Made by a program: the position numbers and the translations under genes. Positions 1 to 48,560 of a stretch of 64,000 bases of DNA are shown here, piece by piece; the stretch's first letter is position 1; every line of letters begins with the position of its first letter. The notes beneath the pieces were generated by a model. It was not told where the DNA came from. It saw only the letters and a program-made list of their open reading frames with translations, and searched no databases. The DNA comes from the human T2T-CHM13v2.0 reference genome, Homo sapiens. The stretch is taken from positions 2,208,001 through 2,272,000 of the forward strand of contig CP068257.2 in the NCBI GenBank assembly GCA_009914755.4, read 5' to 3'.

Positions 1-215
1 TGTCTTATGACCCTGTTATTTTATCCTAGTATGTGCACTAGAGCATATTTTCTAACAGTGTAAATTGAAGGCTCACAAATTAGTTTAGTGAGAGAAAAGA
101 TAACGGATTGGAAGAGAATTACCATATTCATTAGTTGTGTTTTAAAATTTTTAAAGTAAAATAGAGACATTATTTTTTTCATGCTTTCGAATGCATCTAT
201 AAAAAATAGACTTGA

Positions 216-573
<358 letters not shown>

Positions 574-756
574 TTATTTTCACAATGTCCCAGGCTGTGA
601 AACCAGGATTTAATAAAGAACCAGAATGCCACATCTGTGTCACCTGGGTAGGGACCAGTCCTGATACATTAAGTCCGGGTCTCTGGGTAACTGGACTCAA
701 CTGCTGGGCAAAACAGAATGTCCGGCTAGGGTTCCTAACGGGGTACCGCAAAGCCT

Positions 757-782
757 CATGGGAATTGTAGTGTCACCTTCCA
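757..782 (-). promoter_or_regulatory. ZNF143/Staf-binding-site-like motif (minus strand ACTACAATTCCCATGAGGCTTTGCGG)
   Basis: Recalled SBS consensus ACTACAATTCCCAGCAATGC / TTCCCAGAATGCATTGCG: the TTCCCA core, the ACTACA extension and the trailing TTGCG match by eye. It sits at the 5' edge of the CpG island. Confidence 0.4.
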
Positions 783-1260
783 ATGATGTTACCATCAAGG
801 ACCTTGGGAACCAGCTTTTCTCTCTGCGCTTGCGCCGCCCGGCCCACTCCGCCATTTTCCTCCGGAAGTGCGGCACCCAGAGGCGGTCCTGTAGCCGGGC
901 CGGCTTGGGGCTTGGTTCTATGTCCCTGCGGGTCGGTGCAAGGGCGAAGAGGAACCCGTGGGCCTCAGGGGATCCCGGGGGGCCGGACCAGTGTTCCCTA
1001 GTTGTGGGAGCAGACGCGTGGGCACATTGCGGGCGGGCAGGGCCTGAAGTGCAGGTGCGGGCAGTGGACCCTGGCGGGGGCTGGGAGGACAGGCGTGGGG
1101 TCCCGGCAGTGAAACGGGTTCTAGAGGCGCAGGAGCAGGTAGGAGAGGCCGGTGGCCCTGGGCCCGGAGTCTGCAGGCCGCGCTCCTGTCCTGCCGCTGA
1201 GGGACCCGGTTACCAACCTGCATGACGCTCAGTTTGCCCATCTGTCCCAGTGGTAACACA
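780..1260. promoter_or_regulatory. CpG island / putative TATA-less promoter, with GABP/ETS site CCGGAAGTG (868-876) and Sp1-like GC box GGGCGGG (~1031)
   Basis: About 480 bp that is GC-rich and retains dense CpG dinucleotides (roughly 40 CpGs), unlike the rest of the window. ETS core CCGGAAGT and GC boxes are present. Transcription direction cannot be determined from sequence. Confidence 0.7.
1136..1144 (+). other. candidate 5' splice donor (GAGCAG|GTAGGAG) that could close a plus-strand first exon from the CpG island
   Basis: Consensus-like donor CAG|GTAGGA just inside the 3' edge of the CpG island. No convincing downstream partner exon was identified. Confidence 0.2.
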
Positions 1261-4144
1261 CAGTTCTCGGGAGACGTTCCCCATTCCCAGAGGAGTAGTG
1301 TGAAACGCGTGCGCCTCTAGTCTTAAACTTGGCGTTTGTATTAGTTGGGTTTCCTGGTGTCTCTTTAGCAAGTGAAGTTTCTGGTTCCCTCCTTCACTGT
1401 GTGACCTGCCTAGTCCTCCTGGGTCGCATTTACAGAAGTTTATACGAGACCTAGTTTCCAGGGAAGAACTCACTGATTCCGCGAGGGAGATGGCTTAATG
1501 GATGATGGTCGTCAGCCTTAAGGATACTTCAGTCTTAACTGTGTGTTACAAAGTTTGAAAGGGAGGGTTCCCTATGAATAAGAAGCACACTTGAAAGAAC
1601 AGCCATCTGGTCTAACCTCTCACTGGTGCTTCAGAGGAGGAAAAAAGGTCACAGGTGAAGATCCCAGTTTTCCTTGCTCAGGAAATATTAATTCTACTCC
1701 CTAGAATGCACAAGATTTGCAAAGACTAGGTGATAGTAGAAGGTTTGGACGAACTTTCAGAAGGTTGAGGTGAATTCAGCTAAGAAGAACAGGCAAGGAC
1801 TTAGGAAATATTCCTTATTTGAAGGGGCCTGAAAGTGTGGTCTGGGGTACAGCAGTGACCTGTCATACTTGAGAGGATTAAAATACTCTCCAAACACAGT
1901 CCCATTCCTTCAACCTTAGCTCGTTTTTTCCAGCGTCTGAGATATATTAAACCTAGTCCATCCCCAAATTTAACATTAGATTGCGAAGTTCTATTGATTG
2001 TATTTGATTTGTAATTTAAGATTTTCTCCCCCTACGTAATTTTGTTAAAAACACAGAAGTGAATTCTGTTCACTTAGGTGTAACAGTTAATACTTGCTGT
2101 TTAAGGAACTAATTAAAGCTTACTGGCTTATAAAAAACAACCACCATTTTATTTGTTCGAAGTTCTGTGGATCTGCACTTTGGTGTGGTGGGTTAAGCTG
2201 GGTAGTTAATATATTTGTGTTGCCTGGATCACAAAAAGGCCTCAGTCACCTGGTGCCTTGACTGAGCCTGGTTGGTTTAAGATAGTTTCCTTCACAATCT
2301 GGTGGTTTGTGGTGACTCTTGGCTAGGCCCTGTGTCTCCAACAGGGTAGCTCCAGACCTCTTCACAATTTCCCCCAAAAAGGAAAGAACCAATGGATATT
2401 TGCATCACATTTTCCATTTTCCATTCACTGGACAAGTCAGATGGAAAAGCCCAATTTATTGTCAGAGCATAATATGAGGGCTTGGATAGAAGGAAAGGTG
2501 TTATTGAGAAACATGAGTAGAATGGTGTACTGCAGGAAATACATATTATGTACATTTTAAAAAACGTAATTGTAGGCCAAAATTGCTGGTTTGCAAGATG
2601 CATTTTCCATGATGTTCAGGTATAGAAAAGCAAGATGTACTGTCATGGGAACACTCATATGTAGTTATTTGTGGAATCTACATATTAATAGGAAAATAGT
2701 TAATACAGCGCAGTATATTTCTATAACATTTATTTTAGTGAACTTATAATGTTTCTTTGTATTAAATTATTAGATTATATATTTAGATAATATTGTTACT
2801 AAATTAGTAGGTAATATATATTTTTATTCAAAAATAAATTGTGCATCTAATGTCTACCAATTAATGTACTTGTAGATGTATCTTATCTTAACTTGAGTCT
2901 TTGCTGCCCCTAATGAGGTGTGAAGGACTCTTCTCCCCTGGGGAAGTTTTTCTTTTTCAGGAGGGAGGAGGGCTTTCCCAGGTAATGTGTCTAGAGTGTT
3001 GGGCAGAAGAATCTGGGACCACACCACACCAGTTCTCTCCTTAATCCACGTCATTTGCCTTCTATCCCAGGTATGTTTCCAGTGTCCTCTGGGTGTTTCC
3101 AAGAGCAACAAGAAACGAATAAATCTCTGGTGAGTTGTTTATTTGTTCTTCACTTTGTTTTACACTGTATTTTCTGAGTTTATGGGTGTCTGTGAATTAA
3201 AAAGGAAAAGTAGAAATAAGTAAAACTCAGGTTGAAGGAAATATACATAAATAAGATAAAGCTGACCTGTAGATATAGGCAGGTTATAAGAGCTTAGAGT
3301 TGTCTAAGTTGAGTGCAAATTTTCCTCTGATCTTTCTGATGCCGAGACAAAAAAGGCAGTCATGTTTGTTATGTGATTGGAATGGAACCCGAGAAGAGAG
3401 CATGCTGTGTTCTTGTGGGACAGGAAAGCTTGCGTGCACCAAGTCTGAACCACCACCTTCATTGGTGACATAGATTATGTGCTGGAACATATTTCACACC
3501 GGCCTGGCAGTAAACACTTGTAGTGTTGTGCAGTGGAAACGGTCATCTTCCGCTAAATCACGGCGTGTTGTGCAGCGGAAATGGTCATCTGCTGCTAAAG
3601 CACAGCTTCCATCGTAATGTATGCTCCTTGCTCAAAGAGTGTGGTCCCAAACAGCCTTTGGGAGGTCCTCCTTGATTCATGGATGAAACCTGGAACATCT
3701 TGAGGACTGAGTTAACCATAGGTCCTTAAATAACTCTCCACACGTTTTTCTTAGTTTATCTCTACATGCAGGGTGTGCAGCAGCCTGTTCAAAGTCATAT
3801 TTTCTGGGAAATATTTCCAGTGTTTATTTGCACTTTAGCCCACTCTGTGTAGCCTTATTTCTTCTAAACTCACCATTAACCTGAATAATAGTCAAATTTA
3901 GGGGGACTGTATTTGCCTTACTCGAGTCTTCTACCATAGTTGAAACTGTCGTACCCGAGTGAGTTAGAGAGAAATGCCACGCATTGAGACGAATTCAGGA
4001 GTCCTTTACTAGTCAGCGACTGAGACATGGCTAACGCACGAAATTCTCTCGGCCCCGAAGAAGGGACTAGATTTTCTTTTATACTTTGGTTTAGAGAGGG
4101 GAGGGGGGATTCTAGCTGCAGCAACTTTACAGAAGAAAAAAACA

Positions 4145-4462
4145 GGCCGGGCGCGGTGGCTCACGCCTGTAATCCCAGCACTTTGGGAGGCCGAGGCGGG
4201 TGGATCATGAGGTCAGGAGATCGAGACCATCCTGGCTAACAAGGTGAAACCCCGTCTCTACTAAAAATACAAAAAATTAGCCGGGCGCGGTGGCGGGCGC
4301 CTGTAGTCCCAGCTACTGGGGAGGCTGAGGCAGGAGAATGGCGTTGAACCCGGGAAGCGGAGCTTGCAGTGAGCCGAGATTGCGCCACTGCAGTCCGCAG
4401 TCCAGCCTGGGCGACAGAGCGAGACTCCGTCTCAAAAAAAAAAAAAAAAAAAAAAAAAAAAG
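4145..4462 (+). mobile_element. Alu SINE (AluY-like)
   Basis: GGCCGGGCGCGGTGGCTCACGCCTGTAATCCCAGCACTTTGGGAGGCCGAGGCGGGTGGATCA... and a poly-A tail 4434-4461. Confidence 0.9.
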
Positions 4463-4914
4463 AAAAAAACAGACAAAAAACTTAGAAAGACAGATGGTTA
4501 CAGGAAAACAAACTGTTCCTGGTGTAGGGTCTTTAAATTCACCACAAAGTGATAGGTGAGGGGGCTCTGGGCATTATCTGCCGGACAAATGTGGGGGCTT
4601 TATGATACTATCTCTGAGTAAATTGCTGGGAACTGGGGACATCTCTTGTCTCAGCACTTTATCAGTTAATTGCACGCTTTGATATGTTGAAAATCAGCTT
4701 GCACAAGTTAAAGTCCTTGAGGAAAGGGGGTGGGTAAGGAGTCCTTGATGTCTTGTTAATGAAGGAGCCAAATGGAGTTTGTCTGGTTTTCTCAGCTAAG
4801 GGAGAGTCTATTCGTATTAAAAACAAGGTTAGCTGTCTAAGGAAGAGTCTATTCATGTTAATACAACGTTGGGTATTACAAAACGTCTGTTCATGATCTG
4901 GAAATTCTTCTGTG

Positions 4915-5330
4915 TTAGTTCTGTTAAAAGAAAAACTTTAAAGGAGTTTAATTTAGCAATAAACGATTCATGAATCGGACAGTCCCCAGAATCACAGCAG
5001 ATTCACAGAGACTCCAGTGCAGTCATGTGGTGGAAGAAGATTTATAGACAAAAGGGAAGTGGCATACCGAAATCGGAAGTGAGGTACAGAAACAACTCAG
5101 CGTTTGCCTTGTTTGAACACATTTTGAACATTTGGCAGTGCCTGAGTGGTTGAAGTTTGGCCATTGGGATTGGCCAAGATGTAGCTGTTGTTCCAGGTGC
5201 ATACTCTTAAGTTAGTTTTTCATTCTTGTATACCTATTAAGGTAGGTTGCAGTTCACCCACAAGGACTCATATATAGAATTATGGAGTCCTTCTCAGGCC
5301 ATACTTAGTTCACTTTAACAATGCCTTCCC
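4915..5330 (+). repeat. interspersed repeat copy A (LTR-like; family not recognised), homologous to 18700-19190
   Basis: About 80% identity by eye with 18700-19190 in the same orientation, e.g. shared CCCCAGAATCACAGCAGATTC...TTTATAGACAA...GGTGCATACTC...TTAGTTCAC. Confidence 0.5.
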
Positions 5331-5700
5331 TTTGGTTATTTTCTCAATTTTGAGAGATTGGCCGAAACTTCAGTCACTGGTGTCACTATTACCATTGCAA
5401 ATGTACTTACTTGGTTTAGAAACCCACTGGGAAATAGACCAGTGAGATTTGAAAAGGTGGAACAAGGACTTGAGTAGAAGGTATCTTCTTATGCTGGAAC
5501 ATCCTGTTTACAGGAGAAAAACAAAACCTGGTTTGTTCTAGGATTTATGTGTTTCCCTAAAGTCTTAGTTTGATTATGTTACATTTAGCATGAGTGACTC
5601 CATTTTGGTTTGGTTTGGTTTGGTCTGTTGGGACCTATTGCATGAGCTTAGTTCAAAACAATGGCCTCCCATAATTTTGCTTTAAAAATTCCTCCTTTTT

Positions 5701-5990
5701 GCTGGGTGTGGTGGCTCACACCTGTAATCCCAGCACTTTGGGAGCCTGAGGTGGGCAGATCACGAGGTCAGGAGATTGAGACCATCCTTGCTAATATGGT
5801 GAAACCCCATCTCTACTAAAAATACAAAAAATTAGCCAAGTGTGGTGGCGGGTGCCTGTATTCCCAGCTACTCAGGAGGCTGAGGCAGGAGAATGGCCTG
5901 AACCCGGGAGGCAGAGCTTGCAGTGAGCCGAGATCATGCCACTGCACTCCACTCTGGGGGACAGACCAAAACTCTGTCTTAGAAAAAAAA
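5701..5990 (+). mobile_element. Alu SINE
   Basis: GCTGGGTGTGGTGGCTCACACCTGTAATCCCAGCACTTTGGGAG..., A-rich tail about 5981-5990. Confidence 0.9.
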
Positions 5991-6049
5991 AAATCCTCCT
6001 TTTCAGTCAAGTTCTCACTTAGTTGAGAGTGTGACCAAAATGTAGGGCC

Positions 6050-7262
6050 TTAGCATCACTCTTAGTTACCATTGTTTTGGGTTCCAGTTATAGCATGTCA
6101 TTCCCATTGTTTTGGGTTTCTGGTTTAGCACATCACTCCCATTGTTTTGGGTTCCGGTTTTAGCACGTCATTCCCATTGTTTTGGGTTTCTGGTTTAGCA
6201 CGTCACTCTCATTGTTTTGGGTTCCTGTTTTAGCACGTCACTCCCATTGTTTTGGGTTCTGGTTTAGCACGTCACTCACATTGTTTTGGGTTCTGGTTTT
6301 AGCACCTCACTCCCATTGTTTTGGGTTTCCAGGTTTTAGCACGTCACTCCCATTGTTTTGGGTTTCTGGTTTAGCACGTCACTCCCATTGTTTTGGGTGT
6401 CTGGTTTTATCACGTCACTCCCATCGTTTTGGGTTTCTGGTGTAGCAGAACACTCCCATTGTTTTGGGTTTCTGGTTTTAGCACTTCACTCCCATTGTTT
6501 TGGGTTTCTGATTTAGCAGGACCCTCCCATTGTTTTGGGTTTCTGGTTTTAGCATGTCACTCCCATTGTTTTGGGTTCCGGTTTTAGCACGTCACTCCCA
6601 TTGTTTTGGGTTCCGGTTTAGCACGTCATTCCCATTGTTTTGGGTTCAGGTTTTAGCACATCACTCCCATTGTTTTGGGTATCTGGTTTTAGCATGTCAC
6701 TCCCATTGTTTTGTGTATCTGGTTTTAGCACCTCACTCCCATTGTTTTGGGTTTCCAGGTTTTAGCACGTCACTCCCATTGTTTTGGGTTTCTGGTTTAT
6801 CATGTCACTCTCATTGTTTTGGGTTTCTGGTTTAGCAGGACACTCCCATTGTTTTGGGTTTCTGGTTTAGCAGGTCACTACCATTGTTTTGGGTTCCGGT
6901 TTAAGCACATCACTCCCATTGTTTTGGGTTCCGGTTTTAGCACATCACTCCCATTGTTTTGGATTTCTGGTTTAGCAGGTCACTCCCATTGTTTTCGGTT
7001 CTGGTTTAAGCACATCACTCCCGTTGTTTTGGGTTCTGGTTTTAGCACCTCACTCCCATTGTTTGGGTTTCTGGTTTTGCAGGTCACTCCCATTGTTTTG
7101 GGTTCCAGTTTAAGCACATCACTCCCATTGTTTTCGTTTCCGGTTTTAGCACGTCACTCCCATTGTTTTGGGTTCCAGTTTTAGCAAGTCACTCCCATTG
7201 TTTTGGGTTTCTGGTTTAGCATGTCACTCCCATTGTTTTGGGTTTCCAGTTTAGCATGTCAC
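6050..7262. repeat. minisatellite, about 35-36 bp unit (CATTGTTTTGGGTTTCTGGTTTAGCACGTCACTCC variants), about 34 copies
   Basis: CATTGTTTTGGG recurs at 6104, 6140, 6175, 6210 and so on (period 35-36). Units are degenerate, with TTTAGCA / TTTTAGCA and CACGTCA / CATGTCA / CAGGTCA variants. Confidence 0.9.
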
Positions 7263-8535
7263 TCATAGGTTATGGTGGCCTTATGGTTGCACATTTTTTT
7301 TAATCTCTTGTCATTCCAGTTGAAGAGATACCATTTGACATTTTAGAGATGGCTGCATGCAAACTCTTGAAACATTTGAGTAAGTACAGTACACCAGGGA
7401 GACTCTTATGACTATTGGGATAACACCAAGATGTGGTATATGCTCCTTACTCAGGGTCCCCATAAATCAAACCACCAAAAATCAAATAGATTAAAGAATA
7501 AATTAGATAAAGGGTTTACTTGCTTAACTAAGTGGTTTTTTTTGTTAATTCCCTACAACCAAATCTTTATAATACCCCATGTTTTCTCCACATGCTGTAA
7601 GTGTTAGCAGCTGCACAGATACTTAAGATAAGAGTCTCATGATAGTAGAGAAGTCTTGATCTGTGATCTTGGGAAAAGCTGTTCACATTAAGGATGCCAT
7701 CTTCTTCTGGGGGGAACTGTCCGTGTTAGCTTTACCTTAAGGGTTCCAATAGGCATATGGTTCCGAGTGTGGAGGGACCCTTCTGAGTTGTGAGACTATG
7801 AACCCAAAGTTTAAGGTTTTAAAGTTTTGTTGTCATGTGGATGGCGAGGGCAGTCCTTCTCTGATGTTCTCAGAAGATCCAGTCATCAGATTCTAGATTT
7901 TGAAGGGTTTGACTGTCCTCAGTGAACCATAAAAGGCTTTCTTTACCTGGTGAAAATACACTTCAGGGTAATAATCTACTGTTTTAACATCAACTCTCTC
8001 GCATGGAAGAGCTTTTATACAATCAGAAAACATGCACTGAAAATGACAACTGAATGAAATCCCTTTATAAAATGTTTAAATGGCCCATCAGATAACCAAA
8101 TGTACCTGAAGTTTTGATTGTTTTCCTAGGAATATAGGTTTCACAAACCAAACATTGGTTATAAACTATTTTAGCAGTTTAGAAATCACCACACCAATAT
8201 ATTTAATTTGGATCGTTTTCTCTTTCTGTGATGAGTTATGGAATGCAGAACTTTTAATAACAAAAGTTTTTAAGACTTAAGAAGGATAAGGTGGCCATCC
8301 TGGTTCTTCATAGGTCTGTGCTTAATTAACATCAGACTTACATCCTCTTGAATACCAGCTGTTTCTCCAAATTAGGTGCATGGCACTGGTAACTGATGAG
8401 TAGTTATAGGTAATTTGATTTAGACCATGGAGTTTATTTAAATTATATATCTAAACAATTTCAATATTGGTGATTTAGCATGAAAATGTGGCAAAATATT
8501 TCCTTGGTATACAATTTTTGTTTTACTTGGGTTAG

Positions 8536-8868
<333 letters not shown>

Positions 8869-9173
8869 TAACTGTTGAGAATTCTTAGCCAGTCCAATTC
8901 TTGGGGTATCGGGGAACTTATGGGGAATTTTTACCCATGATATTAAAGTTATTAGAAATCTGTGTTCACGAGTGTTTTTCAGGGTCATTTTCATTCTTTC
9001 ATGAATCTTCTAAGAGACACCATACTCTAGAATTTTGCATGCTTGTGAAGTTTTTAGAAACTGCATCACCATTAAGCAATTAACTGTGAAATGACTCTAG
9101 TTATAGTTAAAGACAATTGACAAGGAAATTTGGTTATTTCTGTGGTCTACAATAACTTAATAACCATAATTAG

Positions 9174-10027: not shown

Positions 10028-12142
<2,115 letters not shown>

Positions 12143-36377: not shown

Positions 36378-37845
36378 GTCAAACATTCAGACACTCTCAA
36401 CGACTATAGCGACAGCAGCAGTCTTCAGGAATCCTATGTGAGGGACAAACACTCAGAAGCCAGCTGGAGTGTTCTAGAATCCTATGTGAGGGCCAAACAT
36501 TCAGACCCCAGCAGTAGTGTTGTGGAATCCTATGTGATGGACAAACTTTCAAACCCTTGTAGCAGTGTTCTGGAATGCTATGTGAGGGACAAACATTCAG
36601 ACCACGGGAGCAGTGTTCTGGAATTCTATGTGAAGGACAAACATTAAGACTCTCATAGCAGTGTCCTGGAATCATATGTGAGGGACAACCATTCAGACAC
36701 CAGCAGAAGTGTTCTGGAATCCTAGGTGTGGGAAAAACATTCAGAACCTAGTAGCAGTGTTCTGGAATCCTATGTGAGGGACATACATTCAGACCACGGC
36801 AGCAGTGTTCTGGAATGGTATGTGAAGGACAAACATTCAGACCCTTGTAGCAGTGTTCCAGAATTTTACGTGAGGGACAAACATTCAGACCACAGCAGCA
36901 GTGTTCTGGAATCCTATATGACGGACCAACATGCAGACCCTTGCAACAGTGTTCTGGAATACTAGGTGAGGGAAAAATATTCACACCCTTGTAGCAGTGT
37001 TCTGGAATTCTATGTGACTGACAAACATTCAGACTCCAGCAGCAGTGTTCTGTAATCCTATGTGAGGGACAAACATTCAGACCCCAAGAGCAGTGTTCTG
37101 AAATCCTATGTTAAGGGAAACATTGAGACCCCAGCATGAATGTTCTGGAATCCTATGTGAGGGACAAACATTCAGACCACGGCAGGAGTGTTCTGGAATC
37201 CTATGTGAGGAACAAACATTCAGACCACAGCAGGAGTGTTCTGGAATCCTATATGAGTTATAAGCATTCAGACCCTCATAGCAGTGTTCTGGAATCCTAT
37301 GTGAGGGAGAAGCATTCAGAGCACAGCAGGAGTGCTCTGGAATCCTATGTTAGGGACAAACATTCAGAACCTCGTAACATTGTGCTGGAAACCTATGTGA
37401 GGGACAGACATTTAGACCCTCGCAGCAGTGTTCTGGAATCCCATGTGAGGGTCAAACATTCAGATCCTCGCAGCAGTGTTCTGGAATTCTATGTGAGTGA
37501 CAAACATTCAGACTCCAGCAGCAGTGTTCTGTATTCCTATGAGAAGGACAAACATTCAGAATCCAGGAGCAGTGTTTTGAAATCATATGTTAAGGGCAAA
37601 CATACAGACCCTAGCATCAATATTCTAGAATCATATGTGAGGGACATACATTCAGACCCTCACAGCAGTGTTCTGGAATCCTAGATGGGGGACAAACATT
37701 CAGACCCCAGCAGCAGACTTCTGGAATCCTATGTGGAGGACAAACATTCAGACAATGGCAGCAGTGTTCTGGAATCCTATGTGAGGGACAAACACTCAGA
37801 GCCTTGTAGCAGTGTTCTGGAATCCTATGTGAGTGAGAGTGCCTT
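36378..37845. repeat. 48 bp minisatellite, about 30 copies (unit approx. GTGTTCTGGAATCCTATGTGAGGGACAAACATTCAGACCACAGCAGCA), ORF-open on both strands
   Basis: Counted unit = 48 nt. The ORF track shows an in-frame 16-aa repeat SVLESYVRDKHSDxxS (e.g. ORF 37136-37684, 182 aa), and the minus strand is also open. It is AT-balanced, not G/C-skewed. Confidence 0.9.
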
Positions 37846-38184
37846 GAGCCTACCCAACCTGACGCCCCCAAAGCCCTCACAGGGTCTGACCTCCCAGCAT
37901 GCACCTGCCTCTCCCTGAACCCCAACTGCCCACCCTGCCTGTTCCCCGGCCTCCTCCATCCTGTGCAGCCCATAGACTGTGACCATCTCTCCAGCCACTC
38001 TGGCCCTTCCTTTACCTTTGTCCTGTCAGAATCTCTGAGCAGGATCTCCCAGGTCCATCCAAATATGTGCTTTGTCCACTTTTGACTAGGCCCTTGGGCA
38101 TCACTGGGCTATCCCAGCTGTCCACAGGGCCTTCAATAATGCACATTGCACCTGGCTTATCCAAGCAGTGCTCAGCAGCCCACA

Positions 38185-39065
38185 TTGACCAGGTCCCTGC
38201 TGACCAGACCCCGCACATCAGGTCCTCCCTGATGACACCCTCACTGATTAGACCCTCATGACCAGGCCCCACTAACAAGGCCCCCACTGCCGGGCACACA
38301 ATGACAGGGACTCCACTGACCAGGACCTTACTGACAAGGCCTCACGGACCAAGTCCTTACTGACAAGTCCTCACTGACTAGGTCATTATTGACAAGGCCT
38401 CACTGATCAGGTTCCACTGATCATGACCTCATTCCCTGGCCCCAAAGATGAGGCCCCACTGACCAGGCCTCCAGGGAACAGGTTGCCACTGATCAGGCCC
38501 CTAATAACGAGGCCTTAAGTCACCAGATGCCCCTGACTGGGACCCTAGTGAGTAGACCCCACTGAACTGGCACCAAATGCTGAGATTCCCGCTGACCAAG
38601 TCACCCTGTAGACCGCTGCTACAAAAGTCACCACTGACCAAGTCCTCTCTGACCAGGACAATACAGATTAGGTCCCGCTGACAAGGCTGCCCTGACCAGG
38701 GCCCCACTGACAAGGGCCTCACTGATGAGGACACGCCCACCAGGGTCTGCTGACTAGGTCCCATGTGCCCCGTCCTGCACTGAGTAGCACCCCTTGACCT
38801 GGTCACCAGTGCCCCAGCCCATGCTGACCAGACCAGCACTAAGCCCCAGCTGACCAGGTCTCCACTGATCAAGCCCCACAGCCCAGGTTTGCACTGACCA
38901 GACACCAAACAACTGGCAGCCAATAGGTCCCCACTCACCAAAACCCCCACTACTAGACCCCACTAATGAGACCCTCTCTAAGCAGACCCCTGCTGACCAC
39001 TATCCCACTAAATAGTCCTCACTGACCTAGGTCCACTGACCAGGCCCACACTGATCAGGCCCCTC
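38185..39065. repeat. degenerate ~15 bp minisatellite array, proximal copy (CCCCACTGACCAGGC / CTCACTGACAAGGCC variants)
   Basis: CACTGA(C/T)(C/A)AGG recurs about every 15 bp over about 0.9 kb. Confidence 0.8.
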
Positions 39066-47559: not shown

Positions 47560-48560
47560 TTGTGAGCATAGGACCCAAGAAGTAGTTTTTCAACCCTGGC
47601 CCACTCTGTCCCTCCCCATTCTTATTTCCCAGTGTCTATTATTCCCACCTTTATGACAATGTGCACCCAATATGTAGCTCCCACATGAGTGAAAACATGA
47701 GATATTTGGTTTCTGTTTCTGCGTTGGTTTGCTTAGGAGAGTGGATTCCAGCTGTATTCATGTTGCTGCAAATGATGTGATTTTGTTCTTTTCATGGCTG
47801 CATAGTATTCCATGGTATATATGGAATTTTCCAATCTACCTTGGATTTTCAATCTACCTTGGATGTACCTGGATTGACTCCACATCTTTGCTATTGTGAA
47901 TAGTGCTGCAATGAACATACATGTGTATACATCTTTTTGTTACAATGATTTATTGTCCTTTCGGTATACCCCTAGTATAGTAATGGGGTTGCTGCATCCA
48001 ACAGTCATTCTTAGTTCTTAATTTCCAAACTGCTCTCCATAGTAGCTGAATTAATTTACATTGCCACAAACGGTTTGTGTTCCCTTTTCTCCACAGCCTC
48101 CCCAACATCCTTTTATAAGTTTTTATTTATTATTTGTTTTTAACAAAAGTCATTGTGACTGGTGTGAAATGGTATCTCATTGATGTTTTGTGTGGCATTT
48201 TTCTGATGATTAGCAATGGTAAGCATTTTTTAATGTTTGTTGGCCACTTACGTGTGTTATTTTGAGAACTGTCTGTTCATGTCCTTTGCCCATTTATAAT
48301 GGTCTTATTTATTTTTTGCTTGTTGATTTGTTTAGGTCTCTTATGGATTCTGGATAATAGGCGTTTGCTATATCCATACTTTGTGAATATTTTCTTCCAT
48401 TCTTTTAGGCTTTCTGTTTAATCTCGTGATAGTTTCTCATGCTGTGCAGAAGCTATTTAGCTAAATTAGATCACACTTGTCAATTTTTGTTATTCTTGCA
48501 ATTGCTTTTGAGGACTTAGCCATAAATTAATTGACAAATATGATATCCAGAAGAGTATTT
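47560..48560 (-). mobile_element. L1 3'-end fragment (L1P/L1M), antisense
   Basis: Antisense L1 3' motifs: …CACATGAGTGAAAACATGAGATATTTGGTTTCTGTTTCTGCGTTGGTTTGCTTAGGAGAGTGGATTCCAGCTGTATTCATGTTGCTGCAAATGATGTGATTTTGTTCTTTTCATGGCTGCATAGTATTCCATGGTATATAT… …CATTGTGACTGGTGTGAAATGGTATCTCATTGATGTTTTGTGTGGCATTTTTCTGATGATTAGCAATGGTAAGCATTTTTTAATGTTTGTTGGCCACTTA…. Confidence 0.8.

What the first reader, a model, noticed from the sequence alone, without database searches (positions are those of the whole stretch)
757..1260. CpG-island promoter with ZNF143/Staf, GABP/ETS and Sp1 motifs; target gene and direction unresolved
This is the only CpG-dense stretch in 64 kb. It carries a well-matched extended ZNF143 site (ACTACAATTCCCATGAGGCTTTGCGG, minus orientation) at its edge, a canonical GABP/ETS core CCGGAAGTG, and a GC box. 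That is the classic housekeeping / bidirectional TATA-less promoter architecture. A consensus donor (CAG|GTAGGA, 1136-1144) could terminate a plus-strand first exon, and a GC-rich 155-aa ORF overlaps but looks like composition noise. The coiled-coil exons 50 kb away are on the minus strand and run towards this island rather than away from it, so this island is probably not their promoter. It may be the promoter of a plus-strand gene whose first intron contains much of this window, or of a divergent gene to the left
Basis: partly seen in the sequence, partly recalled or inferred. Interest (0 to 1): 0.55.

Follow-up and report, generated by a model that had tools for sequence, protein, structure and literature searches.

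The report
Ordinary human CpG-island promoter, duplicated
This is an ordinary TATA-less CpG-island promoter in human DNA, carrying ZNF143/THAP11, YY1, ETS and Sp1 sites; it most likely starts a spliced, non-coding plus-strand transcript, and the whole block is present in many near-identical copies in the human genome.

Summary
Window 701-1400 is a CpG island and the only place in 64 kb that passes the strict Takai-Jones criteria. The other CpG-dense stretch is a young AluY.

Each motif except the GC box is unique in the window. The joint chance under the island's own composition is about 3e-7.

Four things point to plus-strand transcription:
- GC skew flips sign at about 860.
- Good donors lie at 1055 and 1139.
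- A canonical 59-nt exon at 3071-3129 matches exon 2 of a marmoset gene model (LOC103791196) whose first exon is this island.
- The minus side meets an ATTAAA and an Alu within 250 nt.

The 155-aa ORF shows no coding constraint.

New here: the island and at least 8 kb around it recur in at least 20 human-derived contigs at 90-98% identity. It is therefore part of a segmental-duplication family that also carries a FAM95B1/PITAR-like exon and an ANKRD18-like pseudogene.

TSS activity, factor binding and the human gene name could not be tested. The architecture is a well-described type, so interest is low.

The parts
701..1400 (.). CpG island. The core 801-1330 also passes Takai-Jones, and it is the only such place in the 64 kb.
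746..771 (-). SBS2-type ZNF143/Staf site with an overlapping THAP11 site: ACTACAA + TTCCCATGAGGCTTTGCG(G). CCCR at SBS positions 3-6 and C at position 12 are present.
   Evidence: motif definitions from PMC3627581 and PMC3082894
835..840 (-). GC box (GGGCGG), a putative Sp1-family site. Expected by chance in this composition.
849..858 (-).
862..870 (+). GABP/ETS core CCGGAAGTG.
1031..1036 (+). Second GC box, inside the putative exon 1.
870..1138 (+). Putative first exon. The 5' end is inferred only from motif positions and the GC-skew switch at about 860. G-rich on the plus strand, with skew +0.15 to +0.45. Ends at donor CAG|GTAGGA (GT at 1139); alternative end at 1054 (donor CAG|GTGCGG).
   Evidence: GT kept in all 22 haplotypes
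3071..3129 (+). Exon 2 (59 nt): pyrimidine tract + CAG acceptor and CTG|GTGAGT donor. Translates to (M/V)FPVSSGCFQEQQ..KSL, matching residues 85-104 of marmoset XP_054114642 (LOC103791196 isoform X3).
758..1225 (+). 155-aa GC-rich ORF overlapping the promoter and exon 1. No coding constraint; treated as non-coding.
609..614 (-). ATTAAA on the minus strand, about 250 nt from the motif cluster and followed by an antisense Alu (218-530). Candidate early-termination signal for upstream-antisense transcripts (inference).

Best explanation
Window 701-1400 is a TATA-less CpG-island RNA polymerase II promoter in human DNA.

Inferred mechanism:
1. The island is kept unmethylated in the germline.
2. ZNF143, or THAP11/HCFC1 in mutually exclusive fashion, binds the SBS2 site at 746-771.
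3. An Sp1-family factor binds the GC box at 835-840, YY1 binds 849-858, and GABP or another ETS factor binds 862-870.
4. Together these recruit Pol II to dispersed start sites at about 860-900.
5. The productive direction is the plus strand. Exon 1 runs to the donor at 1138|1139 (or 1054|1055) and is spliced over a roughly 2-kb intron to a 59-nt exon at 3071-3129, then to downstream exons that could not be located.
6. The transcript is most likely non-coding.
7. Minus-strand (upstream-antisense) initiation is plausible given the motif set, but is probably short-lived.

The promoter belongs to a primate segmental-duplication family with at least 20 distinct human-derived haplotypes at 90-98% identity. 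The same block carries a FAM95B1/PITAR-like exon and an ANKRD18-like pseudogene on the opposite strand.

Shown: island statistics, motifs and their improbability, skew, splice sites, paralogy, the match to the marmoset model, and lack of coding constraint. Inferred: factor binding, TSS position, activity, splicing in human, and germline hypomethylation.
For: - Island statistics, and its uniqueness in the window under strict criteria.
- Four motifs within 125 bp. Three are unique in 64 kb, with a joint chance of about 3e-7 under island composition.
- The motif set matches published SBS2/TBS definitions and the bidirectional-promoter motif set (PMC3627581; PMC3082894).
- GC skew is -0.16 to -0.20 over 751-900 and +0.15 to +0.45 over 851-1150. 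This is the mirror composition described for such promoters (PMC3082894).
- Plus-strand donors score 8.0 and 8.4 within 300 nt, with no plus-strand poly(A) hexamer before 1877.
- Exon 2 has canonical splice sites, kept in all 18 paralogue contigs that cover it.
- A marmoset RefSeq model (XP_054114642/XP_054114641) joins the island sequence to that exon.
- CpG o/e of 0.53-0.71 is retained in every copy examined, consistent with germline hypomethylation.
- No Rfam family, octamer or snRNA-type features lie nearby. SBS2 rather than SBS1 argues for an mRNA/lncRNA-type promoter (PMC3627581).
Against: - There is no direct evidence of transcription initiation, chromatin marks or factor occupancy. None can be obtained with these tools.
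- The human annotation of this locus could not be consulted, so the transcript is unnamed.
- The marmoset ORF starts at the equivalent of 758, inside the SBS. That mRNA model therefore begins upstream of the TSS I infer at about 870. Possible reasons are an upstream start, unstranded read support, or model extension.
- The marmoset exon 1/2 junction is in a different phase from the human donors at 1054/1138, and the marmoset 3' exons are not found in the window.
- Among paralogues the island is more variable than its flanks: 20-37% variable columns against 9-13%.
- Some copies have lost the SBS CCCA core (4 of 21 haplotypes), the ACTACA part (2 of 21) or the ETS core (1 group). There is therefore no sign of purifying selection on the family as a whole.
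- Conservation of the splice sites among 97%-identical paralogues carries little weight.
Confidence: 0.72

Rival explanations
1. The island is mainly, or equally, the promoter of a minus-strand gene lying left of the window. That would make it a true bidirectional promoter. Its first exon would start near 870 and end at AAG|GTGACA (GT at 776) or CAG|GTGACA (643).
For: - ACTACAnnTCCC, GABPA and YY1 are the motifs reported as enriched in bidirectional promoters, and an SBS alone can drive both directions (PMC3082894).
- The composition is mirrored around 860.
- Read on the minus strand, the YY1 motif gives AAAATGG with a good Kozak context and a 26-codon open frame to the 776 donor.
- The marmoset model implies that sequence left of 870 is transcribed.
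Against: - Minus-strand donors are weaker (6.6-6.8 against 8.0-8.4).
- An ATTAAA (614-609) and an antisense Alu follow within 250-350 nt.
- No protein in the 5.8-billion-sequence database shares even three 5-mers with the minus-strand ORF.
- Two kilobases further left, read in paralogue L040, there is no other island or recognisable exon.
- The island extends mostly to the right of the motif cluster.
Confidence: 0.15
2. It is a decaying relic: a promoter copied along with a segmental duplication and now silent (methylated or heterochromatic) at this copy. Its motifs would be intact only because the copy is young.
For: - At least 20 paralogous haplotypes at 90-98% identity.
- The island is more variable than its flanks, with CpG sites changing 4-5 times faster.
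- Motifs are lost in some copies.
- The surroundings are repeat-, VNTR- and pseudogene-rich.
Against: - All copies keep CpG o/e of 0.53-0.71 despite up to 10% divergence. That is hard to reconcile with long-term germline methylation.
- This copy has every motif intact, and its donor (CAG|GTAGGA) is closer to consensus than in most paralogues (CGG|GTAGGC).
- An expressed gene model exists in marmoset.
Confidence: 0.1
3. It is a ZNF143-bound orphan CpG island that acts as an enhancer or architectural element and does not produce a stable transcript.
For: ZNF143 sites have been linked to chromatin looping in part of the literature (PMC7154149, title and abstract only).
Against: - A more recent depletion study reports that ZNF143 acts as a promoter-proximal activator independently of looping and CTCF (PMC11687419, abstract).
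- YY1 and ETS cores lie about 80-100 bp downstream of the SBS, followed by donors and a matching exon 2. This is promoter anatomy.
Confidence: 0.03

Closest known systems
SBS2-type ZNF143/THAP11/HCFC1 promoters (M4 motif ACTAYRNNNCCCR), e.g. the NUP153 and BUB1B promoters
   Same: A 25-bp SBS2: ACTACAA directly followed by an 18-bp Staf site with CCCR at positions 3-6 and C at position 12. It lies in a CpG island about 100 bp upstream of the likely start region (PMC3627581, PMC3082894, PMC5006282).
   Different: Positions 7-11 and 13 of the SBS depart from the consensus at three places. Occupancy is untested. The site is in a multi-copy primate duplication rather than a conserved single-copy gene, and it is mutated in some paralogues.
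Bidirectional CpG-island promoters enriched for GABPA, YY1, NRF1, NFY and ACTACAnnTCCC (as summarised in PMC3082894)
   Same: Three of the five motif classes are present within 125 bp, the G/C composition is mirrored around about 860, and there is no TATA box.
   Different: No partner gene could be shown on the minus strand. The minus side meets a poly(A) hexamer and an Alu within about 300 nt. No NRF1 or CCAAT site was noted.
Staf-dependent snRNA-type and Pol III type-3 promoters (DSE with SBS1 + octamer, PSE, with or without TATA)
   Same: A Staf/ZNF143 binding site is present.
   Different: The site is SBS2, whereas all 56 snRNA/type-3 sites in PMC3627581 are SBS1 only. The nearest octamer is at 2398. 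No small-RNA family appears in Rfam within 6 kb, even at E <= 1.
FAM95B1/PITAR locus (chromosome 9 lncRNA, Lnc-ANKRD20A3-51; PMC11415074)
   Same: Published PITAR exon-1 primers map to window 37875-38992 with 1-2 mismatches (one reverse primer with 4). The window is therefore a paralogue of that duplicon.
   Different: That exon is on the minus strand, 37 kb from the island, and convergent with the island's plus-strand transcript. The island is not the FAM95 promoter. FAM95C qPCR primers do not map to the window, so the exact family member is undetermined.

Membership tests
CpG island | Gardiner-Garden/Frommer: at least 200 bp, GC >= 0.50, CpG o/e >= 0.60 | tested here: met
   701-1400: GC 0.62, o/e 0.64, 42 CpG
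CpG island | Takai-Jones: at least 500 bp, GC >= 0.55, o/e >= 0.65 (criteria designed to exclude Alus) | tested here: met
   801-1330: GC 0.66, o/e 0.67. 710-1559 also passes. No other 500-bp window in the 64 kb passes.
CpG island | Unmethylated in germline or soma | not testable with these tools
   Indirect only: o/e of 0.53-0.71 is retained in all paralogues.
ZNF143/Staf SBS2 site | 18-bp SBS with CCCR at positions 3-6 and C at position 12 | tested here: met
   TTCCCATGAGGCTTTGCG at 747-764 (minus), with 3 mismatches to YWCCCRNAATGCAYYGCG at degenerate positions. Criteria from PMC3082894.
ZNF143/Staf SBS2 site | ACTACAN immediately 5' of the SBS (the THAP11 site ACTACANNTCCCA) | tested here: met
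   ACTACAATTCCCA, exact and unique in the window. Definition from PMC3627581.
ZNF143/Staf SBS2 site | Occupied by ZNF143 or THAP11/HCFC1 in vivo | not testable with these tools
   No ChIP data accessible.
GABP/ETS, YY1 and Sp1 sites | Core consensus sequences CCGGAAGTG, AAnATGGCG and GGGCGG | tested here: met
   The ETS and YY1 cores are improbable by chance; the GC box is not.
Active Pol II promoter | Mapped transcription start sites and promoter chromatin | not testable with these tools
   Only indirect evidence: the skew switch, donors, exon 2 and the marmoset model.
Bidirectional promoter | Two oppositely oriented genes with TSSs less than 1 kb apart | tested here: inconclusive
   Plus-strand transcript supported. 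No minus-strand exon or protein found. Only 700 bp of the window, plus 2 kb of a paralogue, lie to the left.
Conserved (housekeeping-type) promoter | Motifs conserved in other mammals | tested here: inconclusive
   Present in a New World monkey gene model and in 88-92% identical contigs that may come from Old World monkeys. No non-primate orthologue was retrieved by the metagenome scan. Motifs are lost in some paralogues.
snRNA-type Staf-dependent promoter | SBS1 with octamer in a DSE, PSE, and a small RNA gene about 220 bp downstream | tested here: not met
   The site is SBS2, not SBS1. No octamer within 1.5 kb. No Rfam hit apart from Alu/7SL-like ones.
Protein-coding first exon (155-aa ORF) | Excess of synonymous change, with the ORF kept open across copies | tested here: not met
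   Synonymous fraction 0.35 against 0.30 expected, p = 0.24, on 144 unique variants. About 11 of 28 haplotypes keep both the ATG and a 155- or 161-aa ORF. No named human protein found.

The most novel reading that the evidence does not exclude
The island family could be the promoter of a primate-specific, duplication-amplified gene family. Its plus-strand transcripts run convergently into, and might regulate, the adjacent FAM95 (PITAR-type cancer/testis lncRNA) units. Alternatively, they might encode a young micro-protein from the exon 1/exon 2 ORF, as the marmoset annotation proposes.
Probability: 0.07. Interest if true: 0.35.

Novelty: already known. Interest (0 to 1): 0.1.

Why it matters
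It matters little for discovery. SBS2/YY1/ETS/Sp1 CpG-island promoters are a thoroughly described class, and the human genome is densely annotated, so this island is almost certainly already in the CpG-island, cCREs and ChIP-seq tracks.

The useful outcomes are practical:
- The direction question is narrowed to the plus strand, with a concrete exon 2 and testable splice junctions.
- The ORF can be dismissed.
- Any functional-genomics check must allow for multi-mapping, because the promoter exists in many near-identical copies. Standard unique-mapping CAGE or ChIP tracks may show nothing here and falsely 'refute' it.

Tried and rejected
- Rfam at gathering threshold on the whole window, and at E <= 1 on 1-6000, gave only Alu/7SL-like hits.
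- The octamer search found nothing near the island, so an snRNA-type gene is rejected.
It was replaced by tblastn with an ANKRD26 C-terminal sequence recalled from memory, used only as a probe.
- A protein search with the minus-strand ORF that starts at the YY1 ATG returned no candidate.
- The exhaustive representative-library search with the marmoset protein found no further named relatives.
- A full-text search for peptide and DNA strings from the island gave no paper.
- A search for co-mentions of ANKRD18 pseudogene and FAM95 names gave none.
- FAM95C qPCR primers do not map to the window. The PITAR exon 2-4 qPCR primers and the cloning primers were also not found at 4 or fewer mismatches, apart from one 4-mismatch hit for the reverse cloning primer at 47717-47736 that I treat as spurious.
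- LINC01410 and GLIDR papers held no primers in their main text. This line was abandoned as fishing.
- No KRAB or zinc-finger exons were found on either strand, so a ZNF gene is rejected.
- The marmoset 3' exon peptides were not found in the window. A 'GEFLP' match at 8922 is chance.
- The tail of protein P0059 reflects a paralogue or assembly breakpoint at 1013, not a splice.
- Pairwise pN/pS of 0.37-0.75 in the ORF frame looked like constraint. It disappeared under a CpG- and transition-aware model on unique variants.
- The bacterial promoter/terminator scan and the repeat search in the island were uninformative.
- The metagenome scan for the YY1-ETS composite returned mostly unrelated bacterial contigs and no non-primate orthologue.

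Full report
**What the window is.** The sequence is human. It contains Alu elements (for example 218-530 and 4146-4459) and an L1 ORF2 (10028-12073, minus). The exact 155-aa ORF of the island is found in contigs from human gut and lung metagenomes, that is, in host contamination.

**Checking the observation: the island.** The interval 757-1260 has GC 0.657, 33 CpG and CpG o/e 0.62, against 0.21 for the whole window. By Gardiner-Garden/Frommer criteria the island is 701-1400. By the stricter Takai-Jones criteria, 801-1330 and 710-1559 pass, and no other 500-bp window in the 64 kb passes. The one other conspicuous CpG-dense stretch (4001-4450, o/e 0.83) is a young AluY with a poly-A tail and target-site duplication.

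**Checking the observation: the motifs.**
- ACTACAATTCCC is exact at 760-771 (minus).
- CCGGAAGTG lies at 862-870 (plus).
- GGGCGG lies at 835-840 (minus) and 1031-1036 (plus).

The first three motif classes are each unique in the 64 kb. I simulated 40,000 sequences with the island's own first-order composition. The probabilities per 700 bp were 0.001 (ACTACAnnTCCC), 0.028 (ETS) and 0.009 (YY1). The three never co-occurred, and the product of marginals is about 3e-7. A GC box alone is expected by chance (0.69). The donor CAG|GTAGGA (GT at 1139) and the 155-aa ORF are as described.

**What the motifs mean according to the literature.** The 18-bp Staf site is defined by CCCR at positions 3-6 and C at position 12, with the remaining positions degenerate (PMC3082894). 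The site here meets both requirements. With ACTACAA directly upstream it is an SBS2. That form contains the THAP11 site ACTACANNTCCCA and is bound by ZNF143 and THAP11 in a mutually exclusive way (PMC3627581). The same study found only SBS1 at all 56 snRNA and Pol III type-3 genes. Consistent with this, I found no small-RNA family within 6 kb even at E <= 1, and no octamer within 1.5 kb. ACTACAnnTCCC, GABPA and YY1 are three of the five motifs reported as enriched in bidirectional promoters. Such promoters also show mirrored G/C composition (PMC3082894).

**Direction.** GC skew on the plus strand is -0.16 to -0.20 over 751-900. It switches to +0.15 to +0.45 over 851-1150 and falls back to about zero after the 1139 donor. 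From my own knowledge, not tested here, positive skew downstream of a CpG-island TSS marks the sense direction.

On the plus strand there are two good donors: 1055 (score 8.0) and 1139 (score 8.4). There is no poly(A) hexamer before 1877. On the minus strand the donors are weaker (776 at 6.6; 643 at 6.8). An ATTAAA follows at 614-609, and then an Alu in antisense orientation.

Independent support came from the protein search with the island ORF. The only named hit is marmoset 'uncharacterized protein LOC103791196' isoforms X2 and X3 (XP_054114641/2). Its first ~80 residues are the island ORF. Residues 85-104 (VFPVSSGCFQEQQKVHKSLV) match window 3073-3132 on the plus strand at 80% identity. That segment is a textbook exon at 3071-3129, with a pyrimidine tract + CAG acceptor and a CTG|GTGAGT donor. 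Both splice sites are kept in all 18 paralogous contigs that cover it. Since those copies are about 97% identical overall, this conservation carries little weight.

There are caveats. The marmoset ORF begins inside the SBS, so that model starts upstream of my inferred TSS. Its exon 1/2 junction phase does not fit the human donors at 1054/1138. Its 3' exons are not found in the window. Plus-strand transcription is therefore well supported but not proven, and the first intron is about 2 kb rather than 'much of the window'.

**The ORF.** Pairwise pN/pS in the ORF frame was 0.37-0.75, against more than 1 in most comparisons in the other frames. This could have suggested coding. I then took 144 unique variants from 28 haplotypes and applied a mutation model with separate CpG/non-CpG and transition/transversion rates. 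The synonymous fraction was 0.35 against 0.30 expected (p = 0.24). About 11 of 28 haplotypes keep both the ATG and a 155- or 161-aa ORF. No human protein matches. The minus-strand ORF that starts at the YY1 ATG has no relative at all.

**Multi-copy nature (new).** Contigs recovered through the ORF and through a YY1-ETS pattern scan of metagenome contigs align to the window over their whole lengths, up to about 8.6 kb. The alignments include the shared Alu at 218-530. Identity is 88-99%, and at least 20 haplotypes are distinct. Several come from samples labelled human gut metagenome. This is therefore a segmental-duplication family, although some of the 88-92% copies may come from other primates.

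Across the copies:
- The island is more variable than its flanks: 20-37% variable columns against 9-13%.
- CpG positions change 4-5 times faster than other positions.
- Every copy nevertheless keeps o/e of 0.53-0.71.
- The SBS CCCA core is mutated in 4 of 21 haplotypes and ACTACA in 2.
- The ETS core is mutated in one group of three ORF-retrieved contigs, L013-L015. The pattern-retrieved contigs are ascertained for ETS and YY1, so they cannot be counted for those motifs.

The window's copy has all motifs intact, and its 1139 donor is closer to consensus than in most paralogues.

**Surroundings.** The ANKRD26-family coiled-coil exons lie at 52781-52500, about 51868-51658 and 50290-50138 on the minus strand. 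The best named match is orang-utan ANKRD18B at 83%. The reading frame is broken between and within these exons, so this copy looks like a pseudogene. Its 3' end is about 46 kb or more from the island, which confirms that the island is not its promoter.

Published exon-1 primers for the chromosome 9 cancer/testis lncRNA FAM95B1/PITAR (PMC11415074) map with 1-2 mismatches (one reverse primer with 4) to 37875-38992 on the minus strand. A FAM95 paralogue therefore lies between the island and the ANKRD pseudogene, convergent with the island's transcript. FAM95C primers do not map, so I cannot say which family member this is. The chromosomal assignment (chromosome 9 pericentromeric or 9p13) is an inference from the PITAR paper and from memory.

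**Mechanism, with status of each step.**
- Shown: island, motif cluster, skew, splice signals, exon 2 homology, paralogy and the absence of coding constraint.
- Inferred from established knowledge of these factor families: ZNF143 or THAP11/HCFC1 at the SBS2, and Sp1, YY1 and GABP at their sites about 30, 20 and 10 bp upstream of or at dispersed TSSs around 860-900.
- Inferred: productive plus-strand elongation secured by the nearby 5' splice sites, and short-lived antisense transcripts on the other side.
- Not testable here: occupancy, TSS positions, methylation, and expression breadth. The 'housekeeping' label is doubtful given the duplicon context.

**Verdict.** The interpretation as a CpG-island promoter is well supported by anatomy, and the plus strand is the more likely productive direction. 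It is a standard, well-described promoter type in a heavily annotated genome, embedded in a segmental duplication. Interest is low and novelty is 'already known'. The main practical warning is that unique-mapping functional tracks may be blank here because of the paralogues.

Noticed in passing
window 4146-4459: A young AluY with the target-site duplication AGAAAAAAACAG. It is absent from all ~20 paralogous contigs that span the site, so the insertion is specific to this copy of the duplicon, or polymorphic. It could serve as a copy-specific marker.
   Followed up: partly
window 37875-38992 (minus), adjoining the 48-bp VNTR at 36413-37833: Published exon-1 primers of the chromosome 9 cancer/testis lncRNA FAM95B1/PITAR map here with 1-2 mismatches (one reverse primer with 4). 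A FAM95-family paralogue exon therefore lies on the minus strand and runs into a ~30-copy 48-bp minisatellite that is open in several frames on both strands.
   Followed up: partly
window 52781-52500, about 51868-51658, 50290-50138 (minus): ANKRD18/ANKRD26-family C-terminal coiled-coil exons. The first is intact with AG/GT splice sites. The next two need frameshifts to keep the family's reading frame, so this looks like a pseudogene copy.
   Followed up: partly
window 3901-4080: A short non-Alu patch with 10 CpG in 180 bp (GC 0.47, o/e 1.0) just upstream of the AluY. Other paralogues have lost several of these CpGs to TpG/CpA. No motif or function was identified.
   Followed up: partly
window 3523-3603 and 6069-7264: A 42-bp tandem duplication (1.9 copies) and a 35-bp minisatellite with 34 copies (85% matches), both downstream of the island. 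Copy number in the 35-bp array appears to differ between paralogues, judged from BLAST offsets.
   Followed up: no
L001 / L035 (GCA_008917085.1, contig SKEN01003541.1): In a deposited bacterial genome assembly, a PapD-chaperone gene is joined to about 2.8 kb of a human paralogue of this island (95-98% identity). This is a chimeric or contaminated contig in a public bacterial assembly.
   Followed up: no
L138 (ERZ1034284 NODE_6173), equivalent to window 371-1013: One paralogous contig follows the window up to 1013 (GGGAGCAG) and then continues into unrelated sequence. This is either a duplication breakpoint inside the island or an assembly chimera.
   Followed up: partly
window 3071: The first base of exon 2 is G in the window and C in all 18 paralogous contigs. 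The marmoset codon (Ala, G|CT) also implies C. This is a copy-specific variant usable for assigning reads.
   Followed up: no
window 772-826: A CpG-free stretch between the SBS and the GC box is almost invariant across all haplotypes, while the adjacent CpG-rich parts vary. This is most simply explained by the lack of CpG rather than by constraint.
   Followed up: partly
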